Of a DNA stretch of 64,000 bases, positions 10,309-64,000 are shown in pieces. The notes beneath the pieces are model-generated. The model saw only the letters and a program-made list of their open reading frames with translations. It was not told where the DNA came from and ran no database searches. The position numbers and the translations under genes are program-made. Source of the DNA: Lingula anatina. Taxonomy: Eukaryota; Animalia; Brachiopoda. Numbering within the stretch: the stretch's first letter is position 1; the number at the start of each line of letters is the position of its first letter. The stretch is from NCBI GenBank assembly GCA_051362555.1, contig CM120649.1, positions 19,606,567 to 19,670,566 on the forward strand, given 5' to 3'.

Positions 10309-17286
<6,978 letters not shown>

Positions 17287-18255: not shown

Positions 18256-18312
18256 ATGGGGCAGATCCAGATATATTTTCTGACAGTCTTCCAAATTATC
18301 TTTGCTGATCCA

Positions 18313-18350
<38 letters not shown>

Positions 18351-21930: not shown

Positions 21931-23053
21931 ATGAAGAGTTACTCTGTTGGCTTTATTTTGACAATCGCCATGATGGCAGCCAGAGTGGTTTCCCAGGGTA
22001 AGTTACCAGTTCTTTTGTTATATTGTAACAGGAAGAAACAAACAGAAATACTGAAAAAGAAATGGTATTAAAACGGATTTTGTGTAGCATTATACTCGCT
22101 TTAGAGCACGTGTCGGTTTGTATTTGGAAGGAAACATCGGTAAGCTAACGGGCTTTTGTTCTGCTACCAGCGGTTTGAAATACATTTATCATGTCCATAC
22201 ACTCTTCTGCTTTGTTGAAAGCTTCACTCAAGGATTGTTTGACAGGGATGATAAACGTGCTACAAAATTCCTTGGATGTGGATCTTTTTAAAGGGCATCT
22301 TGTTTTTTCACAGGTTATATAAAATTGGGTTGCTGGGCTGACTCGTCAAACCGGGCCATTCCTCCTTTGGAGGGTAAAGATCCCATCCTTGACGGGGCAT
22401 ACTGGTTACGAACGAATGCAGTCGAGAAATGCTACCAAGCTGCAAGGAAACGCGGGTACAAATATTTTGCTTTACAGCACGGTGGATGGTGTGCCTCTTC
22501 CTGCAACGCTGGGCAGACATATATGAAATACGGGCCTTCTAATAATTGCCAACCAGACGGAGAAGGCGGTGGTTTTGCCAATCAACTTTACCAAATTACG
22601 GGCGGTAGGTGTTTTGGCACGTTTAACGTAGGTAACCAAAAGACAAATCTTTTGGGTTGATATTCACGATTGAAACTAACAATTTCAAGGCATTTAAAGA
22701 AACCTGTTATCCTAGCTGTTTTTGGTAACTTGACATTGACAACAATTAAATTGCACCGAGTCCGCTTGGACAAAAAGCCTGCATGTATGTTACAATGACA
22801 CTATTTAGCAAGCTGTTAAATCTATACCTAAAACTGTTAACGAATTAGGGTTGAAAACAAAAATTGATACCAGAATCTTTTGAAACGATAGAATTGTTGC
22901 AATATTTCATTATTTATGGAATTGGGTATAAAACGAAAAATACTATAGGCATAATAGAATTTGTACCCCAGCATTATGGCTGTGTGTGTGTGTGTGTGTA
23001 ATTTAACGTAGGTAACCACAAAACAAAAACTTTTGGGTCGTCGCTGCAGGGGA

Positions 23054-23125
<72 letters not shown>

Positions 23126-23634
23126 ATCTGAACTTATAAATCTTAACTGACATTCTTTTATCTTTTGACAAGGTGTAGGAACACACATTAGATACACAAG
23201 CCACTTTTTGTTGCTCTTGTCTCAGGTGGGGAGACACTTGATCATATTTTAACATACAAACGCCATGAACCAATGTGTCAAAAGCTACGTATATTTTCCT
23301 TATTTTAGGTTCAGAATGCGGGGACGGCAGCTACCCATATGCTGATAGTTTTGACTACCTGTGTTATCGCTCAGGTGTAAGAGACTGCGCTACCAATATG
23401 CCGTACTTCGATATGACCTCTGTTAATGATATATACGCCAAATGTTCTGAATTGTGTGGGTTTCCATTGACCGTCCAGTCTCTGCAAGAACTAATGCAAC
23501 TCGAACGACAGTTCACAGCGTTGGGTAGGTGAACGCTGGGTGATTTATAATTTGTAAACTTGAGACATCCTGTGACATGGGTCGTGCATGACTTGCTTAT
23601 ACTTACCCAATCTTTGCCTGGTCGTCGAAGAAAC

Positions 23635-23690
<56 letters not shown>

Positions 23691-23809
23691 GTTTTAGCGC
23701 CGTTTAACTGTACACAAGAGATGGCGACTACTGGTCAGGTGTCAGAGAATACCTCGGAGTACGCCGTGATCAAATATTTCCCCAGTTCCCAAGGTGAGGC
23801 TATTTATAT

Positions 23810-23875
<66 letters not shown>

Positions 23876-25134
23876 ATAAGCGCATTCAGAACAAATGATT
23901 CTCACACAAGCAGATTGAAATGGATATATATATACATTTATGTTTATTAATGTTGGCATTTATGTTCATTAATGTTGACATTAGGTATAATGTGTCTACC
24001 GTAACAATATTCCAGGCCAAATGGATTGGATCATCGACTTGCGCGACACGGAAATGACCTCCAGATTCATTAACCCACCAATCGAGGGAAGACATCTGAA
24101 GTTTGTGTTCCAGAATCAAGAAATGCGTTTGGATTTCCCTGCGTCGATTTCTGGCCAAGCTATCTGTGATATGCCGTCTAATGCAACAGTTACGGCGTCT
24201 GCACGTACGTATAGACATGATATAGGACAAAAATACCATTAAAGTTGAGGGTTTGATAGCACTCGTTGAAGACTTGCATCTTCTGTCGAAGTTCCTTATA
24301 TTGAAAAGCAATATGCTGTATGTACTGCTACTCCATAACAGGTTTTTTTAGTTTAAAAAGGAAAATCTTAGTTATTTATTATTTTACTTCACAAGCACTG
24401 ATGTCAATAATGATGTTCTTAAAAATGAAAGTGATTTGTACGTAGACCGAGAAAACACAGAAAAAAGCAAAAAAATAAAAACAAAATTTGAAAACTACCA
24501 TTTTCTCTTTTGCCAGCGGCGAAGTGTGTCATTGTTGGGGATCCCCACGTCACAAACTTAGATGGCAAACAACAATTACTGAATGCGGTGTGCAGGGTTA
24601 TTTTATCAGAGACTTGTGTGCCTACCAAACCTGGCGAAGCGCCTCTCCAACCGTTCTCAGTTACCGGAAGAAACAGACCTATTAAGCCAGGCAGCTCCAG
24701 AACATACATAGAGGAACTCACATTTAAAATGTTTGCTACCACTGCTGATATTAATGTCAACGGAGATGTGAAGGTACGCCGCTGAGAGTGGTAGTAGTTA
24801 TCGTTAGAGATTAAATAGAATGTGGACAGGAATTGGAAGTGTTATATTCTATTCTGTTCTGTTCTGTTGTTCTTTTCTGTTCTGTTCTGTTCTATTCCCG
24901 TATTTATAATATTAATTTCTTCATCAAAGGTAAATGGCGTGAATCGGACAGCGACAACCGCCCGTGTATACATTGGCAATGGCTTGCAGCTCTATCTCGC
25001 CAGTTTAACTAGAGGAAACCATCAACACCCTGCCGTTTTTGTTGAGGCCCCCAATGGTCTGAAGGTTGCCCTTACCGTTCCTGAGGGGGGAAACTTTAAG
25101 CCAGGACATCATGCCGAAATAACTACCCCAGGTA

Positions 25135-25177
<43 letters not shown>

Positions 25178-25476
25178 GAAATGACTTAACACGAATTCAA
25201 AGGTCAATGCGGATAAAAGTAACCATGCAAAAGATATGGTTTTTCCGCCAAAAACGTTACTCATACTTGACAGTGGTGATTGCTGGCGTGTTTCTAAAGA
25301 TATGTGTAAATCTAATTTTTGTTTATTTATGTATTTGTTAGCGGAATATGCAGGCAAGCTTTGTGGGGTTTGTGGAAATTTCAATGGTGATCCGAATGAC
25401 GATGACGAGGCTTGTTACGGACAATCTCCAGCAGACTGCGACATATGGCATCCATCGGATGGATCAAAGTAAGAGC

Positions 25477-25512
<36 letters not shown>

Positions 25513-25918
25513 ATTGTTTATCAAATTATAGAGGGTACCATTAAGTTATGTACAGTGATGCTTTGTTGTGAGTTCAGTTTGTTTTTATTATCTATAATCA
25601 TGACCGATGACATATTGTTTCCTGCGCTTTGTCAAGTGACATGTGACACGGGATGTTGTGTCTGGTCTTGCGCAGGATTCATACATAAAATGCACACAGA
25701 GAGAGAGAGAGCCCTTTCCCCCTCCCCGAAATAGAGAGTCCACTCTCCATTTATTGGTACAGGCAAACCTTGCCCTAGATTTTGACCCAATTAGGTCAGG
25801 CTAACCCTAACCATTATAACTATATGGAGGGCGAACTTTCTGTTACACGGACCCTCAGTTTCGTTACACCGGTATACACTCATTACATTGATTTACCTTT
25901 TTCAGTTGCCCAGCGTAA
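21931..25918 (+). CDS. Secreted WSC-like + atypical C-type-lectin-like + VWD protein, paralogue 1 (485 aa)
   Basis: Exons 21931-21997, 22314-22604, 23309-23524, 23698-23793, 24016-24204, 24517-24773, 24930-25131, 25342-25468 and 25906-25918 join in frame (1458 nt). Signal peptide MKSYSVGFILTIAMMAARVVSQ; WSC-like YIKLGCWAD...KCYQAA...GYKYFALQHGGWC; CTLD-like C..LCY...KCSELCGFPLTVQSLQEL...AICD; VWD CVIVGDPHVTNLDG...YAGKLCGVCGNFNGDPNDD. Confidence 0.88.
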
Positions 25919-27174
25919 TACCCAAACAGGCACTTAACCCGTATAACGGCCACGCCTTCACGATAGAACGGCTACGATATACGACAAACATACGAACTGA
26001 GAACAGACTACAACTGAGAACCTGGAGGACTACGGTTCTTGAATACAGTTAACAGGAGGTTTAATTAATGTTATATGGTGAACGACTATATCACTTGGCG
26101 GTGTTACTAAACTAGGCCTATATATATATTTGTCGTAAATGATATAGTTGATGGTGTTTCCTTAAATCGCTTGTTGTCCTTGTGAAATCGCTCAATTTGG
26201 TGGCTCTTTGGGGCGGCCTTTACATTTGTCCCTTGCTCAAAACCACTGCTTGTTGATCAATCGCGTTTGGTACGAACAAACAGGGCTTTACGGTTAGGTT
26301 ATTAAGTTTAGAGTGATAAAAGTGTAGTGTGACTATGGGAAATACTAGTAATACAAATTCACCATCGTCAGAAATCAAAAGGAGAAGAAAACGTATGATG
26401 TCTTCTCAGGAGACTTGTGATATTTAGAAGGAGTAGGATTGATGGTCATCCTGGATCTGAACCATTTCTGAACCAACAAAACGAATATTTTTTAATTAAA
26501 TCAAATAACAAAGGAAATGGGAGCTTGTGGCACGTGATATACAATGAGATATATTAGTGCTGCTATCGTCTTACTGTGTTTCAGACTTCAAGAAACGCCA
26601 AACTGCCTAGGTGGATTTAACACTATTATTGGGACACGCAGCTTTATACAAAGAGTATCTTAATATAAAAATTTGAAAGGTCGTTGTTTTTCCAGCTCTG
26701 TCAAATAACAGTAACTTTGTTGTTGGCTTTTATTGCTTTTGTTATTTTGCTTTTTTTTGTGTAATTTAAAGAACTTGGACTCTGATTTGGTCTTGATACA
26801 GCTGGTGAATAATATGTTTCACAACTGGATAGATTTGTTTCATATTATGCAAAATTAAACTTCATAATACACGGGTCATTTAAGAATGTGGTAATTATTT
26901 GGTTTGATGTTTTAACACTTCATTTTGTTTGAAGCACGCCTCTTTTTAAAAGTGTGCAGTCCGGATTTAATTGTTTAACAATGGCTTGTTCCATTTGCAG
27001 GAGGGTAATCTGCTGTCTTTGTAGATAAAAAGGAAATAAATGGTTTATGAAATGAAATAATTTTATTATTTTTGTGATGACTTTACAAACATCCCTGTCG
27101 CTTCATTTTTATATATTCATTTATTCACGCAGGCTTGGAGGGGAGGGAGGTTAAAGTGCCCCCTTTCCGATATC

Positions 27175-27579
27175 TCTCTTTCTCAAGTGCCCTGTCCCAC
27201 TAGGGCGTTGGCGATCATGGACTTCCACCTCTTCTTGTCCTTTGTGGTCTTCAACAGTTCTCGGTCCGCTATTCCTGTCCATCTACTTATGCTTGCTGTG
27301 TATTTTAATTTTTGCCTGCCCCTGCTTCGCTTTCCGTTGATCTTGCCTGTCACACTAAGATGTTTCAGCGCTTCCTTCCGCATTACGTGTCCCAGAAATT
27401 CCAACTGTCTCTTTCGTATGCCTTTTAGAAGGAAACGCTTTGTTCCTGCTCTCTCCAACACTTTTTGATTTGTCATTTTCTCTGTCCGAGATATTTTCAT
27501 CATTTTCCTGAGGAACCACATCTCTGCTGATTCTATTCGTTGTTCCATACCTTGGGATGTAGTACAGCATTCGCTACCA
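27175..27579 (-). mobile_element. 5'-truncated RTE-clade LINE insertion with 10-bp TSD
   Basis: ORF 27183-27548 (RIESAEMWFLRKMMKIS...KRQLEFLGHVMRKE...GKINGKRSRGRQK) is a typical RTE C-terminus. TTCCGATATC is duplicated at 27165-27174 and 27580-27589; the empty site is seen in the paralogous unit near 36785-36794. Confidence 0.9.
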
Positions 27580-27691
27580 TTCCGATATCACATATGATTA
27601 AAAAGTATTAATTGGGAAGTGAAAACTTTTCATAGGAATAAAAGGGAAAAATATTGAATCAACGAATTACGAAATAACAGTCATTGATTAA

Positions 27692-28030
27692 AGGGATAAT
27701 AACTCTTTGTTTTGGCCAAAAAATGAATTTTCCTGGAGTAAACAACAATCTTTCAGTACTCACCAATGGTTAATGAATCCATTTTTAATTTCAAAGGTAG
27801 TTCCTGGTTTTTTTTTTCTAAAAAATTGTTTTTTTGTTATAATCTCCTAAGAGATTATAACAGAGTAAAGCCATCAATGGAGGTCACGTGGTCTAAAGAC
27901 AAGCTCAGATATCAGAATAATAGCTATAACTGCCGATTTTCTTGTACAACAGAATGTATTATATTTCTATGAGTTGTTCACAATGATTTTATTGTGAAAT
28001 ATAGATCTCATACGAAGAGTTATTATCCCT
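27692..28030. mobile_element. TTAA-target MITE (Kolobok-like termini)
   Basis: TIR AGGGATAATAACTCTT ... AAGAGTTATTATCCCT with TTAA on both sides. The paralogous unit has a single TTAA empty site near 36892. Confidence 0.85.
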
Positions 28031-28489
28031 TTAAATGATGACGATCGGTCAATTCAAACTGAGTACTCATAATTTAAAAGAGAAAAGTGTCAGATACAAT
28101 GCTAACTTCAGCTTCAAATATAGTCTTAAAAGATACATTTTTTTATCCAAAAGATGTTAAAATACCTGAATGTGCAGAAATTTTCAACTGCTCTTTACTG
28201 CAGTCTTCCTCAGTGCTATTGTTTGACCACTAGGTGGAGTTGTGGTAAAAACAAAGTGCAAACTCAAAGGGACGTGCCACCCTGAATGTAAATGTACGTT
28301 GCAACAGATGTGTCTGATCACCCAGCCCCTCAAGCACAATAAAGAAAAGCAATATAAACCTGGCAGTTTTTTCTGTCGTGCACTGTGTTCTCTAAGTATA
28401 TCTGCCTGGTACTGTGTTTTTGGAGTTCACGATCCTGCACAGAAAACTTACTATGTTATGTGGTGCTTCAGTTAAGGAGTTGTCGTTTG

Positions 28490-28644
28490 GATTCAAAGGG
28501 ATGAAAGGCAGATAAAGACCACCTGTAGGCTTTGTCAAGAGTTTAGGGTTTTGGATGGGTGTGTCTGGTGTGACTATTTTGGGATCATGTAAAGAAAGGG
28601 AGTTGTGGAGGTCCATGATGGCCAACCTCCTGCAAGGGCAAGAT

Positions 28645-28680
<36 letters not shown>
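28490..28680 (+). mobile_element. Second copy of the RTE 3' fragment, duplicated with the tandem unit
   Basis: Homologous to 19300-19512 including the (GA)n tail and the downstream flank (28750-28880 matches 19572-19700). Confidence 0.7.
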
Positions 28681-28684
<4 letters not shown>

Positions 28685-29573
28685 TTAAGTACACACACGT
28701 ATACATGTCCCTAATACCTCAGCAGAATTAATGCACCGTTAGGAGATAAATTCACTGTCTGTCACCAAGTATGAATAATAGACAGTGAACATCCAACATG
28801 CCAAAGATGTATCCGGACGTGGTAGCGTTGAACGTCATAAGTCTGTACTCCACAATCAGAAGCATCTGTTGCTACTGGTAAATGTTTAAATGTTTTACTG
28901 AGAGGCGCCTTACATTGTATTCCGCCAGACAAACATGATGAGCAAAGCTAGGTCAATTTTGAAATCTTCTCCCAGCTCACACAGAACTTTTGGACAACTT
29001 AACCAAAGGGTAATATATATATATCGGTTAGACCACCAGCAAACTATAAGAAATCATTCTTCACTGTCACTGTTATTATCATTGACCCTAGAACATTGCC
29101 GTTATATATACACACAATCGACTAAGAAAAAAATTAGAAAAATTGTTATTTTGAATAATCATAAAACAACCATATGAGCTAAGGTAAAATTTAAACCGAA
29201 CATTGAGATATAATGCACCCACCATTATTTACATCTTGAAATTGTGTCAGGAAATGAATTATGTGGTACTTACATCAAGCATTTGACAGTTGGGGCGCAG
29301 TAAAATTTATGTGCTAGTACCTGACGACCGTCAAACGGCATACGGTTATTAAAAATGTATAGATTCTTAAGAGCCCAAAACATATTTTGACATAACAACA
29401 ACAACAACAAAAGTTGCTTGGTTTACTAATGATACCATGTAATAAACCTGGTAGTGTAGGTAGATAGTGTTAGAGATCGAGATCGAGATCAGTCAGTTAG
29501 GAGTTGATGTGTGCATTTGACAGCGCCATTGTGGACAACAACAACAATAACAACAATAACAACAACAACAACA

Positions 29574-29630
<57 letters not shown>

Positions 29631-31335
29631 GCAAAGTCATTTTATAAGGAATAAAAAAGAGTCGGTGAGAAATGGTTGTTGTTGAAGGAAATCTGATAAA
29701 TTATGTAATGTACTGGCGACTACCAAACGGCAGATTATGATTTAAGATGTACACATGGCGTGGGTTAATCTGTTCCTAGACGCCACCTGATGCACTATAA
29801 AGCCACAATCAGATCATCTTTACAGTTATTCCTGCTAGAACGCTGGGGATATTTCAGTTTGTGTTGGACATATAGAACTGTTGCCACCGTTTTGCTGCTA
29901 CCTACCTGAGTGAACCAGACCTGTAAGTACTGCTATTACCTGTGGAAGCATGGTCGTATAAATACCAAAAGTTTGAAGTGGTTAACGAATTTCGTTATTT
30001 GGGTGTCTAAATCATGAAGGTAGGTTTCACAAAGCTCAAAGCAATTGGGATTAGTTTGTGAAATAGGTGTAGGGCCTTGAGTTTTTGAACATTACCGATA
30101 TATTCCTGTTTGATACAGTACATTGTGTCTCGCCATGGAAGTGAAAATTGGGGTCACAATACATACATACAGTGTTGACATTTAATGCAGAATATTTTAT
30201 TTTGAAAGTTATGTCTAGGTAAAAGTGTAAATTATATTTCTGCCTTGTCTGTGTTACTGCTGCATTACGTAATGCGTGATGATTTCTTTGTGTAGTGCTC
30301 CTTGGGCTAGTCCAAGTATGACTATGGCAGAGCATGGTTATGCCCAAAAAGTCCCAATATTTCGGCAATGACTGGACATTCTTAAATTTTGCAAATATAA
30401 AAGCAGTGAATGTTAAAGAGCGTAAACTGAGCGAAGGAAAGTGTTACAGCATTGTTGCTCTGCGATGCTACGGCTGAAAACAGACAGACATTGTCAGACA
30501 GGTTTTTGTGTAGCAGAGAACGCTCCACACGCATATAAGACATTGGATTGAGTTCAGCTAGAGAACAATTTTGGCATGCGACAAACAGCTACGTTAATTC
30601 TGCAGCATACATGTGCCTTTGGCATTAGACAAGATTTCAAAATTTAAAAATCCCCGAGAACACAGTAATAATGACAAATTAATTTTCTACCAAAGTTTTC
30701 AATTCTTTTTGGTCAGATATTTATGAAATATTTTAGATCAATGGAAGAAAGAGTGGGAAATGAGAACAATCATCAACTCATGAAAATGAATATTATTATG
30801 TTAAAAAAAGCATTTCAAGAGAATTCAAACAAAGTGGCGAACGATAGCGTTTTTGGATACCACTTATCAAATTATCTTAATTGTTTGCAAGTTTATAAAA
30901 TAATAACAGATATAATGAATAAATTCCGAGCGGATTTATTATTAGAACATTCATAATCAAAATTTCAAAATTTACGGCAGTTGTATGGACTTTTGAAAGA
31001 AAGTAGTTGGAAAGACTTACCAACGCTGGTAAATTTTAAAAATATGTGTCGTTATCTTGTGGTTTAGCGGTATAAGGCAGAATTTATATAGTAAACATTT
31101 ATAATCATCCACCCTAGGGCAAGTGCACTAAAATTTCACAATGTCCATGCACATCCCAGTTGAAAGGTTTATCAATCCCCCGAAAATAAAAACCGGTGGT
31201 TGCCGGCATCGTTTTATTTCATACATTTTTAAGCGGCACTATTTTTTCATTCTATAATACAGGTGTCTGCTACGATCTTCAAAACCTGTGTTTATATTTT
31301 GAGGAAGACACGTCCAGCTTATCGGCCTGTAAACC

Positions 31336-33043
31336 ATGAAGAGTTACTCTATTGGTTTTTTCTTGACAGTCGCCATGATGCCAGCCAGAGTGGTTTCCCA
31401 GGGTTAGTTACCAGTTTTTTTATAGATAGAAATTCAGATTTTTAATAGAAAGCAACAACCCGAAATGTAAAAAAAGGAATGGTGTTAAAATTAATTTTGT
31501 TACAAGGCATTATATACGCTCTAGAGCACGTGTCGGTTTGTATTTGGAAGGAAACATCGGTAAGCTAACGGGCTTTTGTTCAGCTACCAGTGGCTACATT
31601 AGCGGTTTGAAATACATTTATCATGTCCATACACCCTACCGCTTTATTGAAAGCTTCACTCAAGGATTGTTCGACGGGGATGACAAACGTGCTCCAAAAA
31701 GTTCTTGGATGTGAACTTTTCTAAGGGCAGCTTGTTTTTTTCCCGCAGATTATATAAAATTGGGTTGCTGGGCTGACACGTCAAACCGGGCCATCCCTAC
31801 TTTAGAAGGTAAAGATCCCATCCTTGACGGGAGCTACAGGGCACGAAGGAACGCAATCAAGAAATGCTACCAAGCTGCAAGGAAACGCGGGTACAAATAT
31901 TTTGCCCTACAGCACAGTGGATGGTGTGCCTCTTCCTGCAACGCTGGGCAGACATATATGAAATATGGACCTTCTACTAATTGCCAAGCAGATGGAGAAG
32001 GTGGACCATGGGCCAACCAACTTTACCAAATTACTGGCGGTAGGTGTTTTGGCACGTTTAACGTAGGTAACCAAAAGACAAATCTTTTGGGTTGATATTC
32101 ACAATTGAAACTAACAATTTCAAGGCATTTAAAGAAACCTGTTATCCTAGCTGTTTTTGGTAACTTGACATTGACAACAACTAAAGTGCACCGAGTCCGC
32201 TTGGACAAAAAGCCTGCATGTATGTTACAATGACACTATTTAGCAAGCTGTTAAATCTTTACCTAAAACAGTTAACGAATTAGGGTTGAAAACAAAAATT
32301 GATACCAGAATCTTTTGAAACGATAGAATTGTTGCAATATTTCATTATTTATGGAATTGGGTATACAACGAAAAATACTATAGGCATAATAGAATTTGTA
32401 CCCCAGCATTATGACTGTGTGTGTGTGTATGTGTGTGTGTGTGTGTGTGTAATTTAACGTAGGTAACCACAAAACAAAAACTTTTGGGTCGTCGCTGCAG
32501 GGGACCAATATATATATATATATATATATATAATCTGAACTTATAAATCTAAACTGACCTTCTTTTATCTTTTGACAAGGTGTAGGAACACACATTAGAT
32601 ACACAAGCCACTTTTTGTTGCTCTTGTCTCAGGTGGGGAGACACTTGATCATATTTTAACATACAAACGCCATGAACCAATGTGTCAAAAGCTACGTATA
32701 TTTTCCTTATTTTAGGTTCAGAATGCGGGGACGGCAGCTACCCATATGCTGATAGTTTTGACTACCTGTGTTATCGCTCAGGTGTAAGAGACTGCACTAC
32801 CAATATGCCGTACTTTGATATGACCTCTGTTAATGATATATACGCCCGATGTTCTGAAATGTGTGGGTTTCCATTGGCCGTCCAGTCTCCGCAAGAACTA
32901 ATGCAACTCGATCGACAGTTCACAGCGTTGGGTAGGTGAACGCTGGGTGATTTATAATTTATAAACTTGAGACATCTCCTGTAACATGGACCATGCATGA
33001 CTTGCTTATACTTACCCAATCTTTGCCTGGTCGTCGAAGAAAC

Positions 33044-33087
<44 letters not shown>

Positions 33088-35290
33088 GTTTTAGCGCCCT
33101 CGTTTAACTGTACACAAGAGATGGCGACTACTGGTCAGGTGTCAGAGAAAACCTCGGAGTACGCCGTGATCAAATATTTCCCCAGTTCCCAAGGTGAGGA
33201 TATTTATGTCCACATATTTATATTTATATATATATTTATATCCATTAGCGCATTCAGAACAAATGATTCTCACGCAAGCAGATTGAAATGGATATATATA
33301 TATATACATTTATGTTTATTAATGTTGGCATTTATGTTCATTAATGTTGACATTAGGTATAATGTGTCTATCGTAACAATATTCCAGGCCAAATGGATTG
33401 GATCATCGACTTGCGCGACACGGGAATGACCTCCAGATTCATTAACCCACCAATCGTGGGAAGATATCTGAAGTTTGTTTTCAAGAATCAAGAAATGCGT
33501 TTGGATTTCCCTGCGTCGATTTCTGGCCAAGCTATCTGTGATATGCCGTCTAATGCAACAGTTTCGGCGTCAGCACGTACGTATAGACATGATATAGGAC
33601 AAAAATTCCATCAAAGTTGAGGGTTTTGATAGCACTCGTTGAAGACTTGCATCTTCTGTAAAAGTTCCTAATATTGAAAAGCAATATGCTGTATGTACTT
33701 CTACTCCAGAACAGGATTTTTTAGTTTAAAAAGGAAAATCTTAGTCATTTATTATTTTACTTCACAAGCACTGATGTCAATAATGATGTTCTTAAAAATG
33801 AAAGTGATTTGCACGTAGACCGAGAAAACACAGAAAAAAGCAAATAAATAAAAACAAAATTTGAAAACTACCATTTTCTCTTTTGCCAGCGGCGAAGTGT
33901 GTCATTGTTGGGGATCCCCACGTCACAAACTTAGATGGCAAACAACAATTACTGAATGCGGTGTGCAGGGTTATTTTATCAGAGACTTGTGTGCCTACCA
34001 AACCTGGCGAAGCGCTTCTCCAACCGTTCTCAGTTACCGGAAGAAACAGACCTATTAAGCCAGGCAGCTCCAGAACATACATAGAGGAACTCACATTTGA
34101 AATGTTTGCCACCACTGTTGATATTAATGTCAACGGAGATGTGAAGGTACGCCGTTGATAGTGGTAGTAGTTATCATTAGAGATTAAATAGAATGGGGAC
34201 AGGAATTGGAAGTGTTATATTCTATTCTGTTCTGTTCTGTTGTTCTATTCTGTTCTGTTCTGTTCTGTTCCCGTATTTATAATATTAATTTCTTCATCAA
34301 AGGTAAATGGACTCAGTCGGACAGTGACAACCGCCCCTGTCAACCTTGGCAATGACTTGCAGCTCTATCTCGCCAGTTTAACTAGAGGAAACCATCAACA
34401 CCCTGCCGTTTTTGTTGAGGCCCCCAATGGTGTGAAGGTTGCCCTTACCGTTCCTGAGGGGGGAAACTTTAAGCCAGGACATCATGCCGAAATAACTACC
34501 CCAGGTAAGGAGAGAGAGAGAGAGTGAAAGTGATAAAGGATCGAAGTAATCATGTAATAGAATTAGTTCCGCCGTCAAAAACGTAACTCGTACTTGACAG
34601 TGGTGATTGATGGCGTATTTCAAAACATATATGTGAATCTAATTTTTGTTTATTTATGTATTTGTTAGCGGAATATGCAGGCAAGCTTTGTGGGGTTTGT
34701 GGAAATTTCAATGGTGATCCGAATGACGATGATGAGGCTTGTTACGGACAATCTCCAGCAGACTGCGACATATGGCATCCATCGGATGGACCAAAGTAAG
34801 AGCCTCCTCTTCTCTCTCTTTCTCACACACACAACTGTTTATCAAATATGAATAGAAGGTACAATTAAGTTATGTACAATCTATGCATTGCTGTAAGTTC
34901 AAATAGAAGGTACTATTAAGTTATGTACACTCTATGTTTTGTTGTGAGTTCAGTTTGATTTTATTATCAGAAATCACGACCCATGACATACTGTTTACCG
35001 CGCTTTGTCAGGTGGCATGTAACGGGGGGAGGGGGGGAGGGGGGGCTGGGGGGGGGGGTTGTACCTGGTTTTGTGCAGGATTCATACTTAAAATGCACAG
35101 GGAGTGAGAGTCCCCCATGATAGAGAGTCTGCTTCCCATTTATTGGTACATGTAAGCCTCGCCCTAGATCTGGCCCACTTAGGTCAGGCTAACCGTAACC
35201 AATATAATTATGTGGAGGGCGGATTTTCTATTACACGGACCCTCAGTTCCACTCACCACATCAATTACCTTTTTCAGTTGCCCGGTGTAA
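31336..35290 (+). CDS. Secreted WSC-like + CTLD-like + VWD protein, paralogue 2 (486 aa)
   Basis: Exons 31336-31402, 31749-32039, 32717-32932, 33095-33193, 33388-33576, 33890-34146, 34303-34504, 34669-34795 and 35278-35290; same phases as paralogue 1, no stops seen. Confidence 0.86.
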
Positions 35291-38200
35291 TACCCCAACA
35301 GGGACCCAACCCGTATAACAGCCACGTCTTCACGATAGAACAACTACGATATACGACAAACATACGAACTGAGAACTTCGAGGACTACGATTCTTGAATA
35401 CAGTTAACAGAATATATATATTAATCAATATTATACGGTGAAAGACTATATCACTTGGTGGTGTTACTAGGCTTAATCTTCTCAAAAATGGTATACTTGA
35501 TGGTGTTTCTTTTAATCGCTTGATGTCCTTGTGAAATCGTTCATTTTGGGAACACTTTGGGGCGGCCTTAATTTTTGTCCCTTGATCAAAACCACTGTTT
35601 GGCGATTAATCGCGTTTTGCATGAACAAATGGGGTTTTCGGTTATTGAATGTAAAGTGATAAAAGTCACATGGAAATGGGAGTTTATGACACGTGGTATA
35701 CAATGAGATATATTAGCGCTATCATCTTACTGGGTCTCAGACTTTAAATAACTTCAAACTACATAGGTTAATACAACGCTACTGTTGAAACACGTTGCTT
35801 TATCCAAAGAGTATCTTATTATAAAAGTTGAGGAGCCATTGTTTTTTCCAGCTCTGTCGAATAACACCTACTCTCTCGTTGGCTTTTTTTTTTTTGGCTT
35901 TTGTTATTATTTTTTTTGTGTGTGTAATGTAAAGAACTCTGATTTCGCCTTGATACACCTGGTGAATAATGTGGTTCAAAACTGGACAGAATGGCTTCAT
36001 ATTACGCTGAGACAAACGTCCTAATACACGGACCATTTAAGGATGTAGTCATCATTTGGTTTAATGATTGTAAAATTCCTTTTATTTTAAGCACGTCTCC
36101 TTTGTAGGGCCGAAGGAGGTAATACTGGTTTAATTGTTTAACAATGGCTTATTGCATTGCAGTGGGGTAATATGCAGTCTTTGTGGATACAAAATAAGAA
36201 ATAAATGGATTGCGAAACTATACAATTGTATTATTTTTGTGACAAATTTGCAAACGTCCTCGTTGCTGCACTCTGATATATTCATTTGTTTATTTATTGT
36301 AAGGTCGGGTGCGGAATAATTTGCATAAAAAGCACTCATTTAAAGAATTAGCTCACCGCTCTTCTACTGTATCTCTCTCTCTCTCTCTCTGCTCAACAAT
36401 TTTAAACCGTAAATTTCGTGTTCTTAGTCAACAATGGACACTTTTCGTAAACATTCACTCACACAACCCGCTTTATTTTTGATACAAGACCCCCCCCCCC
36501 CCCCCCTTCATTTTCTTTAACAATTTCTATTACTGGTTCCCGGACCTGGTATTCAGATGAAATCTTTATCAACATAACGCGCTACATAGACGGTGTGCCG
36601 TTACCCATCACCACACGCTGCTTGAACGAGATAAGTGTACATACATAACATATATGGTCTGTTGCGTCGTTAAAATCTCAGTTGATGTTCGTTGTTAAAT
36701 CGACAATACAGAAATTAAAGTGGCTTGACAAGAAGAACGCAGGCTTGGTGGGGGGTGGGGGGGAGGAGGGGTAAATTGCTCCCTTTCTGATATCACATAT
36801 GATTACATAAGTGTATTGGGAAATGGAAACGTTTCATACAGGAAGAAAAGGGTAAAATTAAATCAACGAATTACGAAATAACATTCGTTGATTAAATGAT
36901 GGCGTATGGTTATTTCAAACTGAGTATTCATAATTTAAAAGAGAAAATTGTCAGATACAATGCTAACTTCAGCTTCAGATATAGTCTTAAGAGATTCATT
37001 TATTCATCCATAAGAGAGCGAGGCAAAAGATGTTAAAATGCTTATGTGTACAGAAATTTTCAACTGCTCTTTGCCGCACTCTTCCTCTGTGCTACTGTTT
37101 GACCACTAGGTGGATCGAGTTGTGGTCAAAATGAAGTGCAAACTCATGGGGAACCATGAAAGTAAAGTTATCACTTATGGAAATGTACGTTGCATCAGAC
37201 GTGCCGGATCACCCAGCTCCTCAAGCACAATAAAGAAAAGCAATATAAACCTGGCAGTATTTTTTCTGTCCTGCACTGTGCTCTCTAAGTATATCTGCCT
37301 GTACTGTGTTTTGGAGTTCACGATCCTGCACAGCAGAACTTTTAAGGTACCCACTTGTGGGCTTGATATATTATGAACGCATAGGTGAAATAGTGTTGTT
37401 GTTTGAAAAGCACAATACACTATAGTACCCTTGATTTAATGTAATTCAAAAATTAATCTCATATTTCATGTTTCAGGGGATTCGTTATGCACTGTGCCTG
37501 ACGACCACAAAACAGCAGATAGTCATTAAAAATGTACACGTCGCGTGGGTATTCTTTTTCTTCTCGTCACCTGATATCTTATTAAACCACACTAAATCAT
37601 GATGGTAGGTTTAACAAAGCTCAAAAACAATTGGGATTAGTTTGTGAAATAGGTGTAGGGCTTTGAAGTTTTGAACATTACTTGTAAATCCCTGTTTGAT
37701 GCATTAATATTGTGTCTATAGTTCTGCTCCATATGTCCGTCTTTTTCTCTCCGGTGGATAACCGTGGCGTTGGAGCACTAGGGTAGAAAATGTGTCAGCC
37801 AAAGCTCTTGATGTGTGATTATTACTATTACTAGTCACATTACCCTTAAAATAATGACTTAAAAAAAGTAAAATGTATCTTTGTTTCAAAAGTTTGCAAA
37901 GTAGAGCAAATATTTAAATGTCAAAGCTTTTTCGCAAGCTATATAGGATTTTGATGGAATGATTTAACTGAAGAAACAGTTTATTATGTATTTTAAAAAA
38001 TACGTTTTGGGACCTTTATAAAATTGTTCTATTTGTGAACAACAAACACAAAACAACAACAAGGATAACAACGACAATAAAAATGATAAAAGTGATACCA
38101 AAAAAAGCAAACCCCATTCACAAGTAAGAAGAAAAAATCTGCTAAAAACGGTTATTGCTGAAGTAAATGTGTCTTCCCAGGGTTCACAGTAGGTCGGCTA

Positions 38201-39691
38201 CAGAATTGTTGAATTATGTACTGTGCTTGACGACAACAAAACAGCAGATTGTCATTAAAGATGTACACATTGTTGAATTAAATCTGTCTTTTCGAGGTTC
38301 ACAGTAGGTCAGCTACAGAATTGTTGAATTATGCACTATGCTTGACGACCACAAAACAGCAGATTGTCATAAAAATTTTACACATCGCGTGGGTATTCTT
38401 TTTCTTGGCGTTAGCTGATATCCTATAAAGCCACAATCAATCAAATCATCATTTCAGTTATTCCTGCTAGAAGGCTGGGGATATTTCAGTTTCTGTTGGA
38501 CATAGATAACTGTTGCCACCGTTTTGCTGCTACCTGCCTGAGTGAACCAGACCTGTAAGTACTGTTATTACCTATGGAAGTATTGTCGTATAAATACCAA
38601 GAGTAAATAAAAAATTGTGTTATTTGGGTGTCATACTAAACCATGATGGTAGTTTTTACAAGCTCAAAAGCAATTTCGATTAGTTTTCAAAAGTTTGCAA
38701 AGCAGAGCAAATATTTAGATGTCAAAGCTTTTTTTGCACGCTATAGGTGATTTTGATGTATTGGTTTAACTGAAGAAGCAGTTTAGTATGTATTCTAAAA
38801 TATACGTTTAGGACCTTTATAAAAGTGTTCTATCGTTCTTTGTTTACAAAGTTTATCACAGATTCTATTTCGCAAAGCACATTGTCAACCCTTTTCTATC
38901 AACACATACCAAAACCAAAGAAAGAGATATCAACACCCGTTCAATTATTTCTCCAGTTAATGTGTAATTATTGGTTTCAACATCACCTACTTTTGAAAAT
39001 ACTTTGACATATGTATGTGTCTCATGTGTACAGTAAACATAGAAAATAGCTTGCATTGTTGTCAAAGGAAGTTTGGTCAGTCACATGGCTGGATTGTCCG
39101 TGCACGGAGATTCCAGATCAGTCAACTAGGGTAATAAACGTAGATATCAGACAGTTAGAAGTTGATCTATGTGCACTTTACAGCGCCATTGTGGACAACA
39201 AAACAACAACGAGGACAACTAGAACAACAACAACAATGAAAATGATAATAGTGATACCTTAAAAACAAAACCTCATTCACAAGGAAGAAGACAAAATTTG
39301 CTAAAAACGGTTGTTGTTGAAGCAAATCTGTGTCTTCTCAGGGTATTCACAGTAGGTCAGCTATAGAACTGTTGAATTATGTACTGTGCTTGACGACCAC
39401 AAAACAGCAGTAGTTTTCATATATTGATTGTAAGTTTTAAAATTGCAAATATATTGATTTTTTATTTTTAAAATCGCACAGTGCTCATGCACATCCCAGT
39501 TGTGTCGGAGTGCCAAAATCGTTTTAAAAAACTACTTTGTGGTTTCCGACATCGTTTTATTTCATAATTTTTTAAGCGGCACTAGTTTTTCATTCTATGA
39601 ATTAAAGGTGTCTGCTACGATCTTCAAAACCTTTGTTTTAGGAAGACATTGAACCTCATCCAGCTTATCGACCACTTTGCTGTAAACCACG

Positions 39692-42600
39692 ATGAGTTAC
39701 TATGTTGGTTTTATTTTGACCATAGCCATGATGGCAACCAGAGTGGATACCCAGGGTAAGTAACAAGTTACCAGTTTTTATATAAATAGAGATCAGTTTC
39801 GTTACAGATAGCGATAAACCAAATTGCTAAAAAAGGGAAGGTGATAAAGTTGATTTTGTTAAGTGACATTATATTCGCTAAAAAGCACGTGGAGGAGACC
39901 ATTCCCACAGAAATTTAGATCGATCTATCCCCCTGGGGAGTCTCACTAGATTGCTGTCAGCTTCATCGGCCTAAATGTCTTTGTCGCCTACTAAAAGCTG
40001 TAAGGGGGTAACTAACTTTCTTGCGCGCTCGGCTTCCGGAAGCTGACAGCAATTTAGCGTGAACGCCCAGGAAGTTAGGTCGGTACAGATGGATCGATCT
40101 AAATCTGTGGGAACCCAGTCTAAGTGTGTTTTTGGAGGGAAACAACGTGAGCTATTGGGCTTTTGTTCTGCTAGATTAGTGATTACATAAGCGGTTTGAA
40201 AGGAAATGTATTATTCCCATACACCCTGCGGTGTTGAATGCTTCACTGTAGGATTGTTCGACGGGGATGATAAACGTGCTCCAAAGTGTTCTTGGAAATG
40301 GAACTTTTCTAAACTCAGCTTGTTTTTTTTTTCTCACAGGTTATATAAAATTGGGTTGCTGGACTGACAGGGCACACAGGGCCATCCCTACTTTAGAAGG
40401 TAAAGATCCCATCCTTGACGGGAGTTACCACGTGAGAGAGGACCCAGTCGGAAAATGCTACCAAGTTGCAAGGAAACGCGGGTACAAGTATTTCGCCATA
40501 CAGTACGGTGGATGGTGCGCCTCTTCCTGTAACGCCGGGCAGACATATATGAAATATGGGCCTTCTACAGATTGCCAACCGGACGGAAAAGGTGGACCAT
40601 GGGCCAACCAACTATACCAAATAACGGGCGGTAAGTGTTTTGGTACATTGCACGTAGATTACCAAAAGACTATTTTAACATAGACCCCATTCCCATAGAT
40701 TTTAGATCGATCTATCCCCGTGGGGAGTCTCACTAGATTTCTGTCAGCTTAGCCGGCTTAAATATCTGTCCCGCCTCCTAAAAGCTGTAAGGGGGTAATT
40801 AATTTCCGTGCGCAGTTGGTTGACAGCAATTTAGCGTGAACCCCCAGGGACTTAGGTCGATCTAGTTGGATCGATCTAAATCTCTGGGAATGCGCTCATA
40901 AACACTTTGAACCAATCAGTCAAAAGCTAAGTATTTTTTTTCTCTTTCTTAGGTTCAGAATGCGGAGACAGCAGCTACCCATATGCTGATAGTTTTGACT
41001 ACCTGTGTTATCGCTCAGGTGTAAGAGACTGCGCTACCAATATGCCGTACTTCGATATGACCTCTGTTGATGACATATACACCCAATGTTCTGAAATGTG
41101 TGGATTCCCATTGACTGTCCAGTCTCTGCAAGAACTAATGCAACTCGAACGACAGTTCACAGCGTTGGGTAGGTGAACGCTCAGTGATTTATAAACTTGA
41201 TATTGCACAATGCGGTTTTCTTCTTCTTATTATTATTATTTTATATTTTAGTGTTTAACTGTACACAGGAGATGGCGACTACAGGTCAGGTGTCAGAGAA
41301 GACCGCAGAGTACGCCGTGATCAAATATATCCCCAGTGCCAAAGGTAAGGACATATGTGCAACATTTATATGTGCAGCAGCTTGCATAATGAAAAACGGC
41401 AAATGAGCGAAGTATTGATCCAGGTGCATCAACGTAAACCATTTTAATGAAAAATGTATGCGTTTATGTTACTTAAACACTGTCCGTTTCTATTGATAAT
41501 ATATAAAATGTGTCTATCGTAACTATTCCAGGCCAGGTGGATTGGATCATTGACTTGCGTGACAGGGCAATGACCTCCAGATTCCTAAACCCGCCAATCG
41601 AGGGAAGTCATCTTAAGTTTGTGTTCCAGAATCAAGAAATGAGTTTGGATTTCCCTGCGTCAATTTCTGGCCAAGCCCTCTGTGATGTAACGTCTTATGC
41701 AATAGTTACAGCTTCTGCGGGTACGTTTTGAGCGACTAAAGACATGATATAGAAGTAAAATTCCATCAAAGTTGATAGCACTTGCATCTTCTGTCGAAGT
41801 CCCGAGTATTGAAAAGCATTATCCTGTATGTTCTGCTACTCCAGCACAGGTTTTTTTTCAGTTTAAAGAGGAAAATCTTAGTCAGCTATTATTTCACTTC
41901 AACAGCACTGATGTCAATAATGATGTACTTAAAAATGTAAGTGATTTTTTTCGGAATGTACGTAGACCGAGAAAACACAGAAATAAAAAAGCAAATAAAT
42001 AAAAACAAAATTTGAAAACTACAATATTTATCCTTTACCAGCGGCGCAGTGTGTCATTGTTGGGGATCCCCACGTCACAAACTTAGATGGCAAACAACAA
42101 TTACTGAATGCGGTGTGCAGGGTTATTTTATCAGAGACTTGTGTGCCTACCAAACCTGGCGAAGCGCCTCTCCAACCGTTCTCAGTTACCGGAAGAAACA
42201 AACCTATCAGGCCAGGCAGCGCCAGAACATACATAGAGGAACTCACTTTTAAAATGTTCGCTACCACTGTTGATATTAATGTCAACGGAGATGTGAAGGT
42301 TCGCCATTGAGAGTGGTAGTTATCATCAGAGGTTTAATACAATGGGGACAGGAATTGGAAGTGTACTACTCTGTTCTGTTGTATTCTTTCCTTTCTATTT
42401 TGTATTGTTCTGTTCTGTTGTTCTGCTCTGCTCTGCTCTGTTCTATTCTATTCCTGTATTTATAATAATAATTTCTTTATCAAAGGTAAATGCCATGAAT
42501 CGGACAGTGACAACCGCGCGTGTCAGCATTGCCAATGGCCTGGAGCTCTATCTCGGCAGTTTAACTACAGGAAACCATCAACATCCTGCTGTTTTTGTTG

Positions 42601-43499
42601 AGGCGATCAATGGTGTGAAGGTTGCCCTTACCGTTCCTGAGGGTGGAAACTTTAAGCCAGGACATCATGCCGAAATAACTACCCCAGGTAAGGAGAGAGA
42701 GAATCGAAATAACTTAACACGAATTCAGAGGTCAAGGTGGATAAAAAATAATCGTGTTATAGAATTGGTTTCACCGTCAAAAACGCAACTCGTGCTAGCC
42801 AGTGATGAGTGCTGGCGTATTTCAAAACATATATGTGAATCTAATTTTTGTTTTTTATACATTTGTTAGCTGAATATGCCGGCAAGCTTTGTGGGGTTTG
42901 TGGAAATTTCAATGGTGATCCGAATGACGATGACGAGGCTTGTTACGGACAATCTCCAGCAGACTGCGGCATATGGCATCCATCGGATGGACCAAAGTAA
43001 GAGCCTCCTCTTCTCTCTCTTTCTCACACACACAACTGTTTATCAAATATGAATAGAAGGTAAAATTAAGTTATGTACAATCCATGCATTGCTGTAAGTT
43101 CAAACAGAAGGTACTATTAAGTTATGTACAATCTATGCTTTGTTGTGAGTTCAGTTTGTTTTTATTATCAGAAATCACGACCCATGACATACTGTTTACC
43201 ACGCTTTGTCAGGTGGCATGTGACGGGGGGGAGGGGGGGGGGCTGGGGGGGTTGTACCTGGTTTTGTGCAGGATTCATACTTAAAATGCACAGGGAGTGA
43301 GAGTCCCCCATGATAGAGAGTCTGCTTCCCATTTATTGGTACATGTAAGCCTCGCCCTAGATCTGGCCCACTTAGGTCAGGCTAACCCTAACCATTATAA
43401 TTATATGGAGGGCGGATTTTCTGTTACACGGACCCTCAGTTTCGTTACACCGGTATACACTCATTACATTGATTTACCTTTTTCAGTTGCCCAGCGTAA
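39692..43499 (+). CDS. Secreted WSC-like + CTLD-like + VWD protein, paralogue 3 (483 aa)
   Basis: Exons 39692-39755, 40340-40630, 40953-41168, 41252-41344, 41532-41720, 42042-42298, 42486-42687, 42870-42996 and 43487-43499; same phases, no stops seen. Confidence 0.85.
39896..40122. mobile_element. Palindromic non-autonomous element in intron 1 of paralogue 3
   Basis: AGACCATTCCCACAGAAATTTAGATCGATC ... GATCGATCTAAATCTGTGGGAACCCAGTCTA; absent from the homologous intron of paralogues 1 and 2. Confidence 0.8.
40682..40895. mobile_element. Second copy of the same element, in intron 2 of paralogue 3
   Basis: AGACCCCATTCCCATAGATTTTAGATCGATC ... GATCGATCTAAATCTCTGGGAATG; body nearly identical to the 39896 and 63870 copies. 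Confidence 0.8.
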
Positions 43500-47670: not shown

Positions 47671-50600
47671 ATGGAGTTGAGTTCCGCTGTTATTTTACTT
47701 TGTCTTGTTGACGCTACACTTGGAATTCGTGAGTAAGTAGGCCTACTGCACTCTGTCATTTATTACTGAAAATATTCTTTTTTTACAAAACGAGGGACAT
47801 AATGTTAACATCCTTAATTAGCATTTACCTAAATTTTGTTTAACGTAGGTTTGTTTGGCATACTAGTTAAGGTACAGCTGCGACACTTGTGGGTCCTACT
47901 GATTGCCATAAACACTTTTAACTCAAAAGCTCTATCAAGCCCAAGCCCACTGTTGCCCATTTCTCATTCACACAAACCACAGTGATGGTCTTAGATAAGG
48001 GCAGTCGCTGAGTTGATTCGTAAATATCTAAGTATGGAGTTGTCAGGAGATAAAGCCAGGCATGCCAGCCTTCATTGTACGTGTTTATACTGATTCATTA
48101 ACCATATCAGCCACTTGGATGGATTAAAAGAAGTAAAGATAGTTCACAATGTTAAAGCGACAGTTTTAGCACAACATTTTTTTAGGAATATACCTTCATA
48201 TTATTGTGTGAAATTTTGAATAGTCTTAGAGCTCCAGGAGTTAAAAAAAAAAAAACACAAATAATATCGACTGGAAAATTTATGGGAAAAACCGTATGGT
48301 AAATGCATTCTTTATTATAACTGTTATCATTGTTATTATTGGTGAACCATTTTTGGATTTAAACTATAACATTTAGCAAAAGGTGCAGTGGAAACATTCC
48401 ACTAGAATGCCTAACTTGCATCATTTTCAATTCAGGGTAAAACCGGCCCACGAAACGCACGTTGTGAAAGCCAAGATAAATAAGCTTGATGAAAATCATT
48501 ATCAGTTTTACACGCCTAGCTTCACTATAATAATAATATGGTGTCTCTGCTTTTACATGTTTCAAAATGGGTTCATCGTGAATATAAGAAAGTTGAATTT
48601 CCCTCGTGAAGAAATATAATTATCATGTTGAAGCGTTTCAGAATGCAATTTTGTCATATAATGTCCAGTTCATAAAACGTTACTTTGAAACTTTTCATCG
48701 AATAAGCAGGACGACAGCTGCTTACAACAAAATTGCCCATAGTTCATTTTAACGTATTCTAGTTTGAAAAGAACACTACACGGGTATAATGGTGAACTGT
48801 TAGGTAGCGTGTTGGGATAGATAGAAACTCCTTTTGAACTCGGCTGGCTTTTAGTTTTCAGTTTGTAGTGGATTAGCCAATAAGCAGATAAGCCGATAAG
48901 CCGGTCACTAAAATTTAAAAACAATATAACAAATACAAATAAAGTTTAAAACAATAATTCTCATAAATTCATAAATTAAAGCAAACTTAGACACTTACTT
49001 AATTGTGGAGTCTATAAAGTCATAGCAGGAGAGCCATGTCCTTCTTCTTTCAGAGTCAAGTAGCAGTGTGTGATGTGCAGTAGATGTGGTCTTATGTTTC
49101 ACATGAGTGAGTGAACACATTTGCATGACTGATAAAGTGAACAGTTATCAGTATCTTGTAGAAATCCCAGAACAGGTAGAGATGATGTCTGCCATTCAAA
49201 ATCAGTTGTTTTTTTTTTAGTATCAAACCTAGGAATGTACAGGCCACATCACAGTCCAAGTGTTCAGTAACATCCACCCTCCTGGACATCCTGAAGAACG
49301 GCCTGAATGACCTGAAGCAGGACAATAAAAAGTTGGAAAGCAGATTCGATGATCTGGTGGACAAATATGCTAAGCTTCTACAGGCGACAACAACTTTACA
49401 GGTCAAATTTGCAAACTTCACCGCAGAAAATCAAGGCGGTGGGTTGCATTTTGTACAGCAATTAAATTCAATATTGCATATAAATAACATTTATATTTAT
49501 GTAAACTTTTGCAGCCGTCTTTTAGAAAATAAATGTCCTCTTTTAGAAATAACTCTATTCACTGAAATGGCGTAGGAATATGACGGAGATAGTATGAATT
49601 TAACGGAATGTGTCTCTTCTTCTTACAGCAGCTGGCCGGGACTGCGCTGAATTGTACATGAAAGGCGTGAAGTTGAACGGGGTGTATACCATAACACCAG
49701 ATAACAGCCCGAACGCATTTAACGTCTACTGTGACATGACCACTGACGGAGGAGGATGGACGGTAAGATTTTACTCAATAGCTATAATAAATCAATATAC
49801 TTCAAATGAGAGACAGTAGGCCTACTCTTTTTCAAATATTTTGGTTGATTTTAGACTTTTAGTTTTTTGGTCTCGAAATTTCTTTTGTGTGTGAGATGCA
49901 ATTTAATGAATGTATATGTACATGCATCCCAAACCTTCAGTCTCAAAACACTTATAATTGTCAAAATGATGAATATTTCATATTTACCGTTAAATGTGTC
50001 TTTTCTGCCGTTGAACAATAATGATATATTTTATATTTTTAAGCTGTTCCAGAAGCGCATGGACGGTTCCGTGGATTTCTACCGTGGCTGGCAGTCTTAT
50101 AAGGATGGGTTTGGAAATCTGAATGGAGAACACTGGTTAGGTAATATTCTTACTCTTCATTAAGTATTGTGTTAGGAATGTTGAAGATTGAAAACGAATG
50201 CCATATGAGTGTCAAAATTGCATTGAAAATATCATGATCTGTACCAGTTGTATTCCACCCTACATGCATTCATGAATTACCATAGGAATTAAAATACTAC
50301 AATATACACCTTGAACAATCGTCGCTGCAAAGTTAATACTGTTAATACTGTGTGATTCATGCATCTCAGGGGCGGATCCAGGATTATTTGAAGGGGCGGG
50401 GGGGTCTGCTGATTCGAAGCCGACCCTCCCCTACTTAGAGTGGGGTTCGGGGCCGTTTAAGGACCCCGAAAAATGGTCCTTTAAAGGGCGAATGGTGCCA
50501 TTTGATACGGTTTAGAACTATGATTCTAGTCAAAATTATAATTTCAAGATGGGACCATTGGTGTGATTTTTTTTTCAGAAATTGAAGGGGGGTCAGGACC

Positions 50601-63869: not shown

Positions 63870-64000
63870 AGACCCCATTCCCACAGATTTTAGATCGATC
63901 TTACCCTGTGGGGAGTTTCACTAGATAACTGTCAGCTTAGCCGGCTTAAATGTCTGTCCCGCCTACTAAAAGCTGTAAGGGGGTAATTAACTACCGTGTG
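63870..64000. mobile_element. Another copy of the AGACCCCATTCCCA palindromic element, cut by the window edge
   Basis: Nearly identical to 40682-40810. Confidence 0.8.

What the first reader, a model, noticed from the sequence alone, without database searches (positions are those of the whole stretch)
21931..43499. Tandem triplet of secreted WSC-like / CTLD-like / VWD proteins beside a fibrinogen-domain gene: candidate undescribed recognition-and-polymerisation system
Seen: three intact 9-exon genes with identical exon phases, a signal peptide, no transmembrane segment, and three modules. Established: WSC-type domains bind glycans, CTLD folds are recognition modules, and VWD domains (here with GDPH and CGxCG) drive disulphide-linked multimerisation in VWF, mucins and FCGBP. 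Inference: a small secreted family that couples a glycan sensor to an assembly domain (agglutinin, mucus, adhesive or matrix protein), clustered with a FReD gene about 4 kb downstream on the same strand. I do not recognise this domain order in a named family.
Basis: partly seen in the sequence, partly recalled or inferred. Interest (0 to 1): 0.8.

Follow-up and report, generated by a model that had tools for sequence, protein, structure and literature searches.

The report
Lingula WSC–VWD secreted protein triplet
Three intact neighbouring gene copies in a lamp-shell (Lingula) genome join a WSC domain to a single von Willebrand D domain through an unassigned middle part, and likely make a secreted, sugar-binding, self-clipping surface or mucus protein rather than a polymer-forming system.

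The parts
21931..25918 (+). Gene 1, 9 exons (21931-21997, 22314-22604, 23309-23524, 23698-23793, 24016-24204, 24517-24773, 24930-25131, 25342-25468, 25906-25918), 485 aa
   Evidence: 245 of 246 aa identical to RefSeq XP_013398606 and 461 of 485 to XP_013398607
31336..35290 (+). Gene 2, 9 exons (31336-31402, 31749-32039, 32716-32931, 33095-33193, 33388-33576, 33890-34146, 34303-34504, 34669-34795, 35278-35290), 486 aa
   Evidence: spliced reads 31401->31748 and 34502->34667 in run X7
39692..43499 (+). Gene 3, 9 exons (39692-39755, 40340-40630, 40953-41168, 41252-41344, 41532-41720, 42042-42298, 42486-42687, 42870-42996, 43487-43499), 483 aa
   Evidence: 7 of 8 introns among the joints shown in runs X7-X9
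21931..21997 (+). Exon 1 of gene 1: predicted signal peptide (aa 1-22)
   Evidence: hydropathy maximum at the N-terminus; cleavage site inferred by eye
22314..22604 (+). Exon 2 of gene 1: WSC-fold domain (aa 23-119) of a marine-invertebrate subfamily; extra Cys86; variable segment aa 51-60
23309..24204 (+). Exons 3-5 of gene 1: unassigned middle module (aa 120-286), 7 Cys; weak C-type-lectin-like and discoidin-like resemblances
24517..25918 (+). Exons 6-9 of gene 1: lone C-terminal VWD domain (aa 287-485) with GDPH at 294-297, 8 Cys, no C8/TIL/E; exon 9 supplies the terminal Cys483
47671..51699 (+). Neighbouring FReD gene, 6 exons, 317 aa: hydrophobic N-terminus, coiled-coil-like segment, fibrinogen C domain; probably not functionally tied to the triplet
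   Evidence: exons 1-2 nearly without reads in X7-X9

Best explanation
A tandem array of three intact Lingula genes encodes a WSC-fold domain, an unassigned middle module and one VWD domain, and the product is likely a secreted, glycan-binding surface or mucus protein that is predicted to clip itself at GDPH and stay a disulphide-held two-chain monomer or dimer. Shown: gene structure, purifying selection, splicing of at least one family member, and the two folds. Inferred: (1) secretion; (2) Asp295-Pro296 self-cleavage in the secretory pathway into about 30 and 20 kDa chains held by Cys290-Cys450, making the domain protease-resistant as in FCGBP; (3) the basic WSC head binds microbial or host glycans; (4) the VWD docks the protein non-covalently on mucins or matrix; (5) gene conversion or unequal crossing-over homogenises exons 3-8 while the WSC exon stays divergent, giving variant binding heads.
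For: Intact paralogues with dN/dS 0.34-0.49. Spliced reads in X7-X9 and next to none on the exons in X1, X2, X4, X5, so expression is sample-restricted. WSC and VWD folds. GDPH with Cys at D-5 and D+17 as in FCGBP; Asn at D+14 where FCGBP D10 has the helper Gln. C320/C447 co-vary in 11 of 11 homologues. This WSC subfamily keeps D32, R36, Y52, R55, Q77 and N112 nearly invariant over 264 domains from 95 proteins. It sits beside lectin-type domains in 29 of 93 proteins (hand tally). Fungal WSC proteins are described as beta-glucan-binding (PMC9252488, passages). Exon 2 differs more between copies than exons 3 and 5-8 (33/291 vs 32/991 nt for genes 1-2, Fisher p 4e-7). Eight of 10 positions in aa 51-60 vary, against 16 of 87 elsewhere.
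Against: No binding, cleavage, secretion or tissue data exist for this protein. Among the closest solved animal WSC matches is KREMEN1, which binds proteins (recalled). dN/dS in exon 2 is 0.26-0.31, so there is no sign of positive selection. The variable positions are also the family's variable ones, and segment 51-60 was picked after looking. The lectin-neighbour tally has no background rate and includes isoforms. A third of the protein is unassigned. The reads are mostly 88-95% alike and carry one predominant sequence, so expression of each of the three copies is not shown. One Cys in WSC, one in the middle and C464/C472 have no assigned partner.
Confidence: 0.5

Rival explanations
1. Structural or adhesive matrix protein with no defence role: the WSC head binds the animal's own chitin or matrix glycans (chaetae, pedicle cuticle, periostracum, egg coat) and the VWD links it to matrix proteins.
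For: Sample-restricted expression. The VWD's closest sequence relatives are zonadhesin and FCGBP. Two FCGBP-like Lingula genes are mantle-enriched in PMC4595640's supplement, though they cannot be mapped to this locus.
Against: The three RefSeq accessions are absent from the 2026 shell-proteome supplement while a control accession was found 16 times. The 2015 shell tables list VWD proteins of 7124-21010 aa only and no WSC domain. This argues against shell matrix only, not other matrices.
Confidence: 0.22
2. One reading: glycan recognition followed by disulphide-linked polymerisation through the VWD, working with the neighbouring FReD protein.
For: FCGBP's lone C-terminal VWD does form a disulphide dimer (PMC11796319, passages). 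Cys86 is Lingula-specific and the middle has an odd number of Cys. C464/C472 are extra, and the C-terminal loop 466-482 is low-confidence in the model.
Against: No C8/TIL/E or other D-assembly partner. The FCGBP dimer uses cysteines that lack their usual partners; here Cys483 keeps its partner Cys312, and I see no Cys in the matching loop. FCGBP itself is reported not to form disulphide polymers (PMC10880436). The total of 20 Cys is even. FReD exons 1-2 have depth 0-0.7 against 50-180 on gene 3 bins in X7-X9.
Confidence: 0.12
3. Secreted modulator of protein ligands, like RGM or BMPER (lone or partial GDPH-VWD) combined with a KREMEN-like protein-binding WSC.
Confidence: 0.12
4. Uncollapsed haplotypes or an assembly artefact.
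Against: The proteins differ by 9-16%; aligned intron identity drops to 67-90% in most pairs with gene 3; the copies carry different insertions. RefSeq lists three models, each on a 22,467-nt contig, with neighbouring accessions.
Confidence: 0.04

Closest known systems
FCGBP / zonadhesin GDPH-type VWD domains
   Same: Best sequence and structure relatives of the VWD; GDPH, Cys at D-5 and D+17, and terminal W...C conserved; FCGBP also ends in a lone VWD.
   Different: One VWD instead of 7-13; no C8/TIL/E; the terminal Cys keeps its intrachain partner, unlike FCGBP's dimerising last VWD; WSC head instead of IgGFc-binding N-domain.
Gel-forming mucins and VWF
   Different: No D assemblies and no PTS or cystine-knot region in a 485-aa protein, so the known polymerisation machinery is missing.
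Fungal WSC lectins, Wsc1, KREMEN1
   Different: Only 19-24% identity; four invariant Cys; scores under the Pfam cut-off; belongs to a separate marine-invertebrate subfamily with no solved member by sequence.
Uncharacterised marine-invertebrate WSC mosaics (amphioxus P0059: WSC-VWD-C8-TIL-tectonin-VWA; unnamed P0077: 5xWSC-VWD; amphioxus WSC + C-type lectin proteins)
   Same: Same WSC subfamily (about 50-70% identity) fused to VWD or to C-type lectin domains.
   Different: None carries the Lingula middle module; none has this three-part order.
RGM proteins and BMPER
   Same: GDPH-cleaved VWD outside a full D assembly.

Membership tests
Gel-forming mucin / VWF | VWD followed by C8, TIL and E (D assembly), in tandem | tested here: not met
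   Pfam on P0048 gives one VWD and no C8 or TIL; the protein ends 23 aa after the Pfam match
Gel-forming mucin / VWF | PTS-rich region or C-terminal cystine knot | tested here: not met
   absent from all three translations
Gel-forming mucin / VWF | Disulphide-linked polymers | not testable with these tools
   needs non-reducing gels; the complex predictor was unavailable
FCGBP | VWD with GDPH and a Cys tethering the first strand | tested here: met
   GDPH 294-297, C290 and C450 align with homologues; cleavage itself untested
FCGBP | Multiple D assemblies | tested here: not met
FCGBP | Last VWD with two partnerless Cys that form the dimer | tested here: not met
   C312 and C483 both present; no Cys between 320 and 447 (PMC11796319 passages)
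WSC domain | WSC fold | tested here: met
WSC domain | Pfam PF01822 gathering score | tested here: inconclusive
   24.2-25.8 bits against 27.8, E about 1e-5; the three-repeat Lingula relative P0016 passes
WSC domain | Carbohydrate binding | not testable with these tools
   only guilt by association and fungal literature
C-type lectin domain | Profile match | tested here: inconclusive
   No Pfam hit. A local 26-domain HMM gives 0.3-4.1 bits, with shuffles up to 7.9. Block test: 6-18 of 300 shuffles reach the score. ESM features: top hit 0.85 with Lectin_C on 29% of members, 125 of 256 features shared, a lead only.
C-type lectin domain | CTLD fold | tested here: inconclusive
   aa 124-285 pLDDT under 50 in the alignment-based model; helices 158-169 and 178-189 recur in both models
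C-type lectin domain | Inner C2-C3 disulphide and EPN/QPD plus WND calcium-sugar motifs (motifs recalled) | tested here: not met
   no Cys between 196 and 274; Ala266 at the C-x7-C position, Arg261 for the Trp, Asp263 kept
F5/8 type C (discoidin) domain | Profile match over the whole domain | tested here: inconclusive
   Only the C-terminal motif matches: 6-14 bits against a shuffle maximum of 6.2, and 3-12 bits against 6.9 without the seed hit; hhalign probability 28% and 2%. Predicted helices in exon 3 do not fit.
Fibrinogen-related protein (neighbour gene) | Fibrinogen C domain after a secretion signal and coiled coil | tested here: met
   three exon pieces each above the Pfam cut-off; intact 317-aa model

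The most novel reading that the evidence does not exclude
The middle module is a new domain (a C-type-lectin derivative that lost both inner cysteines and gained an insertion), and the protein is a covalent glycan tag. The variable WSC head picks a target glycan, GDPH cleavage leaves a reactive Asp anhydride on the WSC-bearing chain that esterifies to glycans as inter-alpha-inhibitor heavy chains do, and the Lingula-specific Cys86 links chains into multivalent agglutinins whose heads are reshuffled between copies. It would also be the first functional handle on an uncharacterised WSC subfamily shared by ctenophores, corals, brachiopods, hemichordates, amphioxus and tunicates.
Probability: 0.1. 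Interest if true: 0.75.

Novelty: new variant of a known kind. Interest (0 to 1): 0.36.

Why it matters
Modest as it stands: marine invertebrates shuffle lectin-like and VWD modules freely, and these genes already sit in RefSeq as uncharacterised models. Two things give it value. It is a small natural single-VWD GDPH protein, suited to asking what GDPH cleavage is for, which PMC10880436 calls unresolved. And its first exon module belongs to a strongly conserved animal WSC subfamily that scores under Pfam's cut-off and for which I found no functional study; a glycan-array test would show whether animals have an overlooked lectin module.

Tried and rejected
No own genome was held, so copy number elsewhere, read depth and the FReD family size were not checked. 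Single-sequence folding failed (mean pLDDT 36.9) and was not searched. Alignments A1, A2 and A5 misplaced the VWD rows and were discarded. A6 was folded although the first 9 residues of its 11 VWD rows sat on aa 98-106, and it had only two near-identical rows over most of the middle. The complex predictor was not available, so there is no verdict on self-association. No CTLD or discoidin structure is among the 50 VIA rows or the Foldseek rows shown, which says nothing because the middle was unfolded. The LRR hit to the middle (E 7e-4) was rejected as repeat-summed noise. The discoidin reading was not adopted (motif only, chosen after a search). A transmembrane segment in gene 3 (hydropathy 1.53 at aa 274) was rejected: it is the linker plus first VWD strand and scores 0.77 in genes 1 and 2. 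Retention of intron 8 (as in XP_013398606) was rejected as the main form: about 200-340 reads per run splice 42996->43487. Earlier scan findings: none by sequence or by words. Literature searches listed no paper on this domain order. The Lingula immune-gene survey (PMID 29278680) is not held and may mention these genes.

Full report
Observation. I rebuilt the three genes from the sequence. Each has nine exons with GT-AG introns, phases 1,1,1,1,1,0,1,2, and an open frame of 485, 486 or 483 aa with 20 cysteines at matching places. Identities are 442/485 (genes 1-2), 419/483 (1-3) and 407/483 (2-3), with dN/dS 0.49, 0.34 and 0.36. The duplicated units, about 9.4 and 8.3 kb, include flanking DNA. 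No fourth copy lies in the window. An intact six-exon FReD gene begins 4172 nt after gene 3.

Organism and independent record. Exon 2 found Lingula anatina XP_013398607 (P0048, 485 aa). Its cluster holds XP_013398609 and XP_013398606, all on a 22,467-nt contig. They are 86-99.6% identical to the window's proteins and are mosaics. P0048 follows gene 2 over exons 1-2 and gene 1 further on; P0095 follows gene 2, then gene 1 and gene 3 in the VWD. The window is therefore very likely Lingula, and the array is unlikely to be uncollapsed haplotypes. The mosaics suggest gene conversion or unequal crossing-over, though chimeric assembly of the older scaffold is not excluded.

Expression. Seven of nine listed RNA runs were laid. 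X7, X8 and X9 (one study) cover the exons at about 50-180 per direction and show joints for 7 of gene 3's 8 introns among the rows displayed. The exon 3-4 joint lies beside a skipped repeat and is not shown; the exon 8-9 joint is exact. X1, X2, X4 and X5 cover repeats but give almost nothing on the exons. The reads are mostly 88-95% alike with differences in nearly all reads, so they come from a diverged population with one predominant transcript; expression of each copy is not shown, and tissues are unknown. In the same runs the FReD's exons 1-2 have depth 0-0.7, and reads on its fibrinogen exons look like paralogues (30 replaced letters at a joint). Divergence above 12% in those exons could also explain the gap.

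Module 2. Residues 120-288 have no Pfam hit. Among 1.84 billion representatives, three passed E 0.001: P0048 itself, an amphioxus F5/8C repeat protein (3e-7, summed over four stretches) and an LRR protein. For a C-type lectin reading: by eye the N-terminal half lines up with C...CY and the first helix, and the end keeps D-x-x-(A)-x7-C with both inner cysteines lost; helices 158-169 and 178-189 recur in both models; the ESM feature search puts a Lectin_C-bearing cluster first (0.85, 125 of 256 features, a lead only). Against it: a local HMM gives 0.3-4.1 bits with shuffles up to 7.9, hhalign probability is 0.4%, and 6-18 of 300 shuffles reach the block score. A discoidin C-terminal motif in exon 5 scores as well or better but covers only a part. 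The region has pLDDT under 50. It is unassigned; if it is a CTLD it lacks the calcium-sugar motifs (motifs recalled).

Mechanism. Most likely (0.5) a secreted, GDPH-clipped, disulphide-held protein whose WSC head binds glycans at a surface or in mucus and whose VWD docks non-covalently, with recombination among copies varying the head. Secretion, cleavage, glycan binding and docking are all inferred. Rivals: self-matrix or adhesive protein (0.22), covalent polymer system with the FReD (0.12), protein-ligand modulator (0.12), artefact (0.04). A shell-matrix role has no support. The three accessions are absent from the PMC13425148 supplement with a control found (main text seen as passages), and the PMC4595640 shell tables hold no small VWD protein and no WSC domain (supplement parts 8-9; main text seen as passages).

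Novelty. Full-length and middle-plus-VWD searches found no other protein with this order, but other brachiopods and phoronids are thinly sampled, and the word-based searches have length limits. WSC+VWD and WSC+CTLD pairs already occur in uncharacterised amphioxus and unnamed proteins. Nine literature searches listed nothing on this domain order; passages of PMC10140915, PMC4890752 and PMC10855680 mention WSC only in other architectures. The Lingula immune survey is not held, and bioRxiv supplements are closed; either could bear on the claim. Verdict: a real, lineage-restricted new variant of the shuffled lectin-like/VWD extracellular proteins of marine invertebrates; interest 0.36.

Noticed in passing
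P0016 and P0057 (Lingula RefSeq proteins): Lingula also has a secreted-type protein made of three of these WSC modules only (one repeat carries the extra Cys86), and a protein with a WSC module inside a COLFI-like region.
   Followed up: partly
The WSC subfamily is 50-70% identical across ctenophore, corals, brachiopod, hemichordates, amphioxus and tunicates, occurs in long tandem arrays in corals, often scores under Pfam's cut-off, and has no solved member by sequence; a candidate overlooked animal lectin module.
   Followed up: partly
window 323-1926, - strand: Exons of a glycosyltransferase family 7 gene (Glyco_transf_7N).
   Followed up: partly
window 10312-16858, - strand: RRM gene with RGG-rich and low-complexity exons (RRM_1 hit); looks hnRNP G/RBMX-like (recalled).
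   Followed up: partly
window 54945-62501, - strand: Large gene with an 804-aa open exon and an ALMS-motif exon (27.8 bits, just above the cut-off).
   Followed up: partly
window 39895-40023, 40682-40810, 63870-63998: A repeat element inserted in introns 1 and 2 of gene 3 only, with a third copy at the window's end; heavily covered by reads in all four runs. MITE-like by appearance.
   Followed up: no
window 27186-27587, - strand: ORF fragment resembling the end of a LINE reverse transcriptase (recalled; no Pfam hit), between genes 1 and 2 only.
   Followed up: partly
window 16074-16379 and 18258-18739: Nested long inverted repeats (arms 65-81 nt, 83-92% complementary), probably hairpin transposon remnants.
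   Followed up: no
P0096 (XP_013398606): The RefSeq model lacks the N-terminal half and reads through the intron-8 donor, losing the terminal Cys; RNA joints support exon 9 instead.
   Followed up: yes
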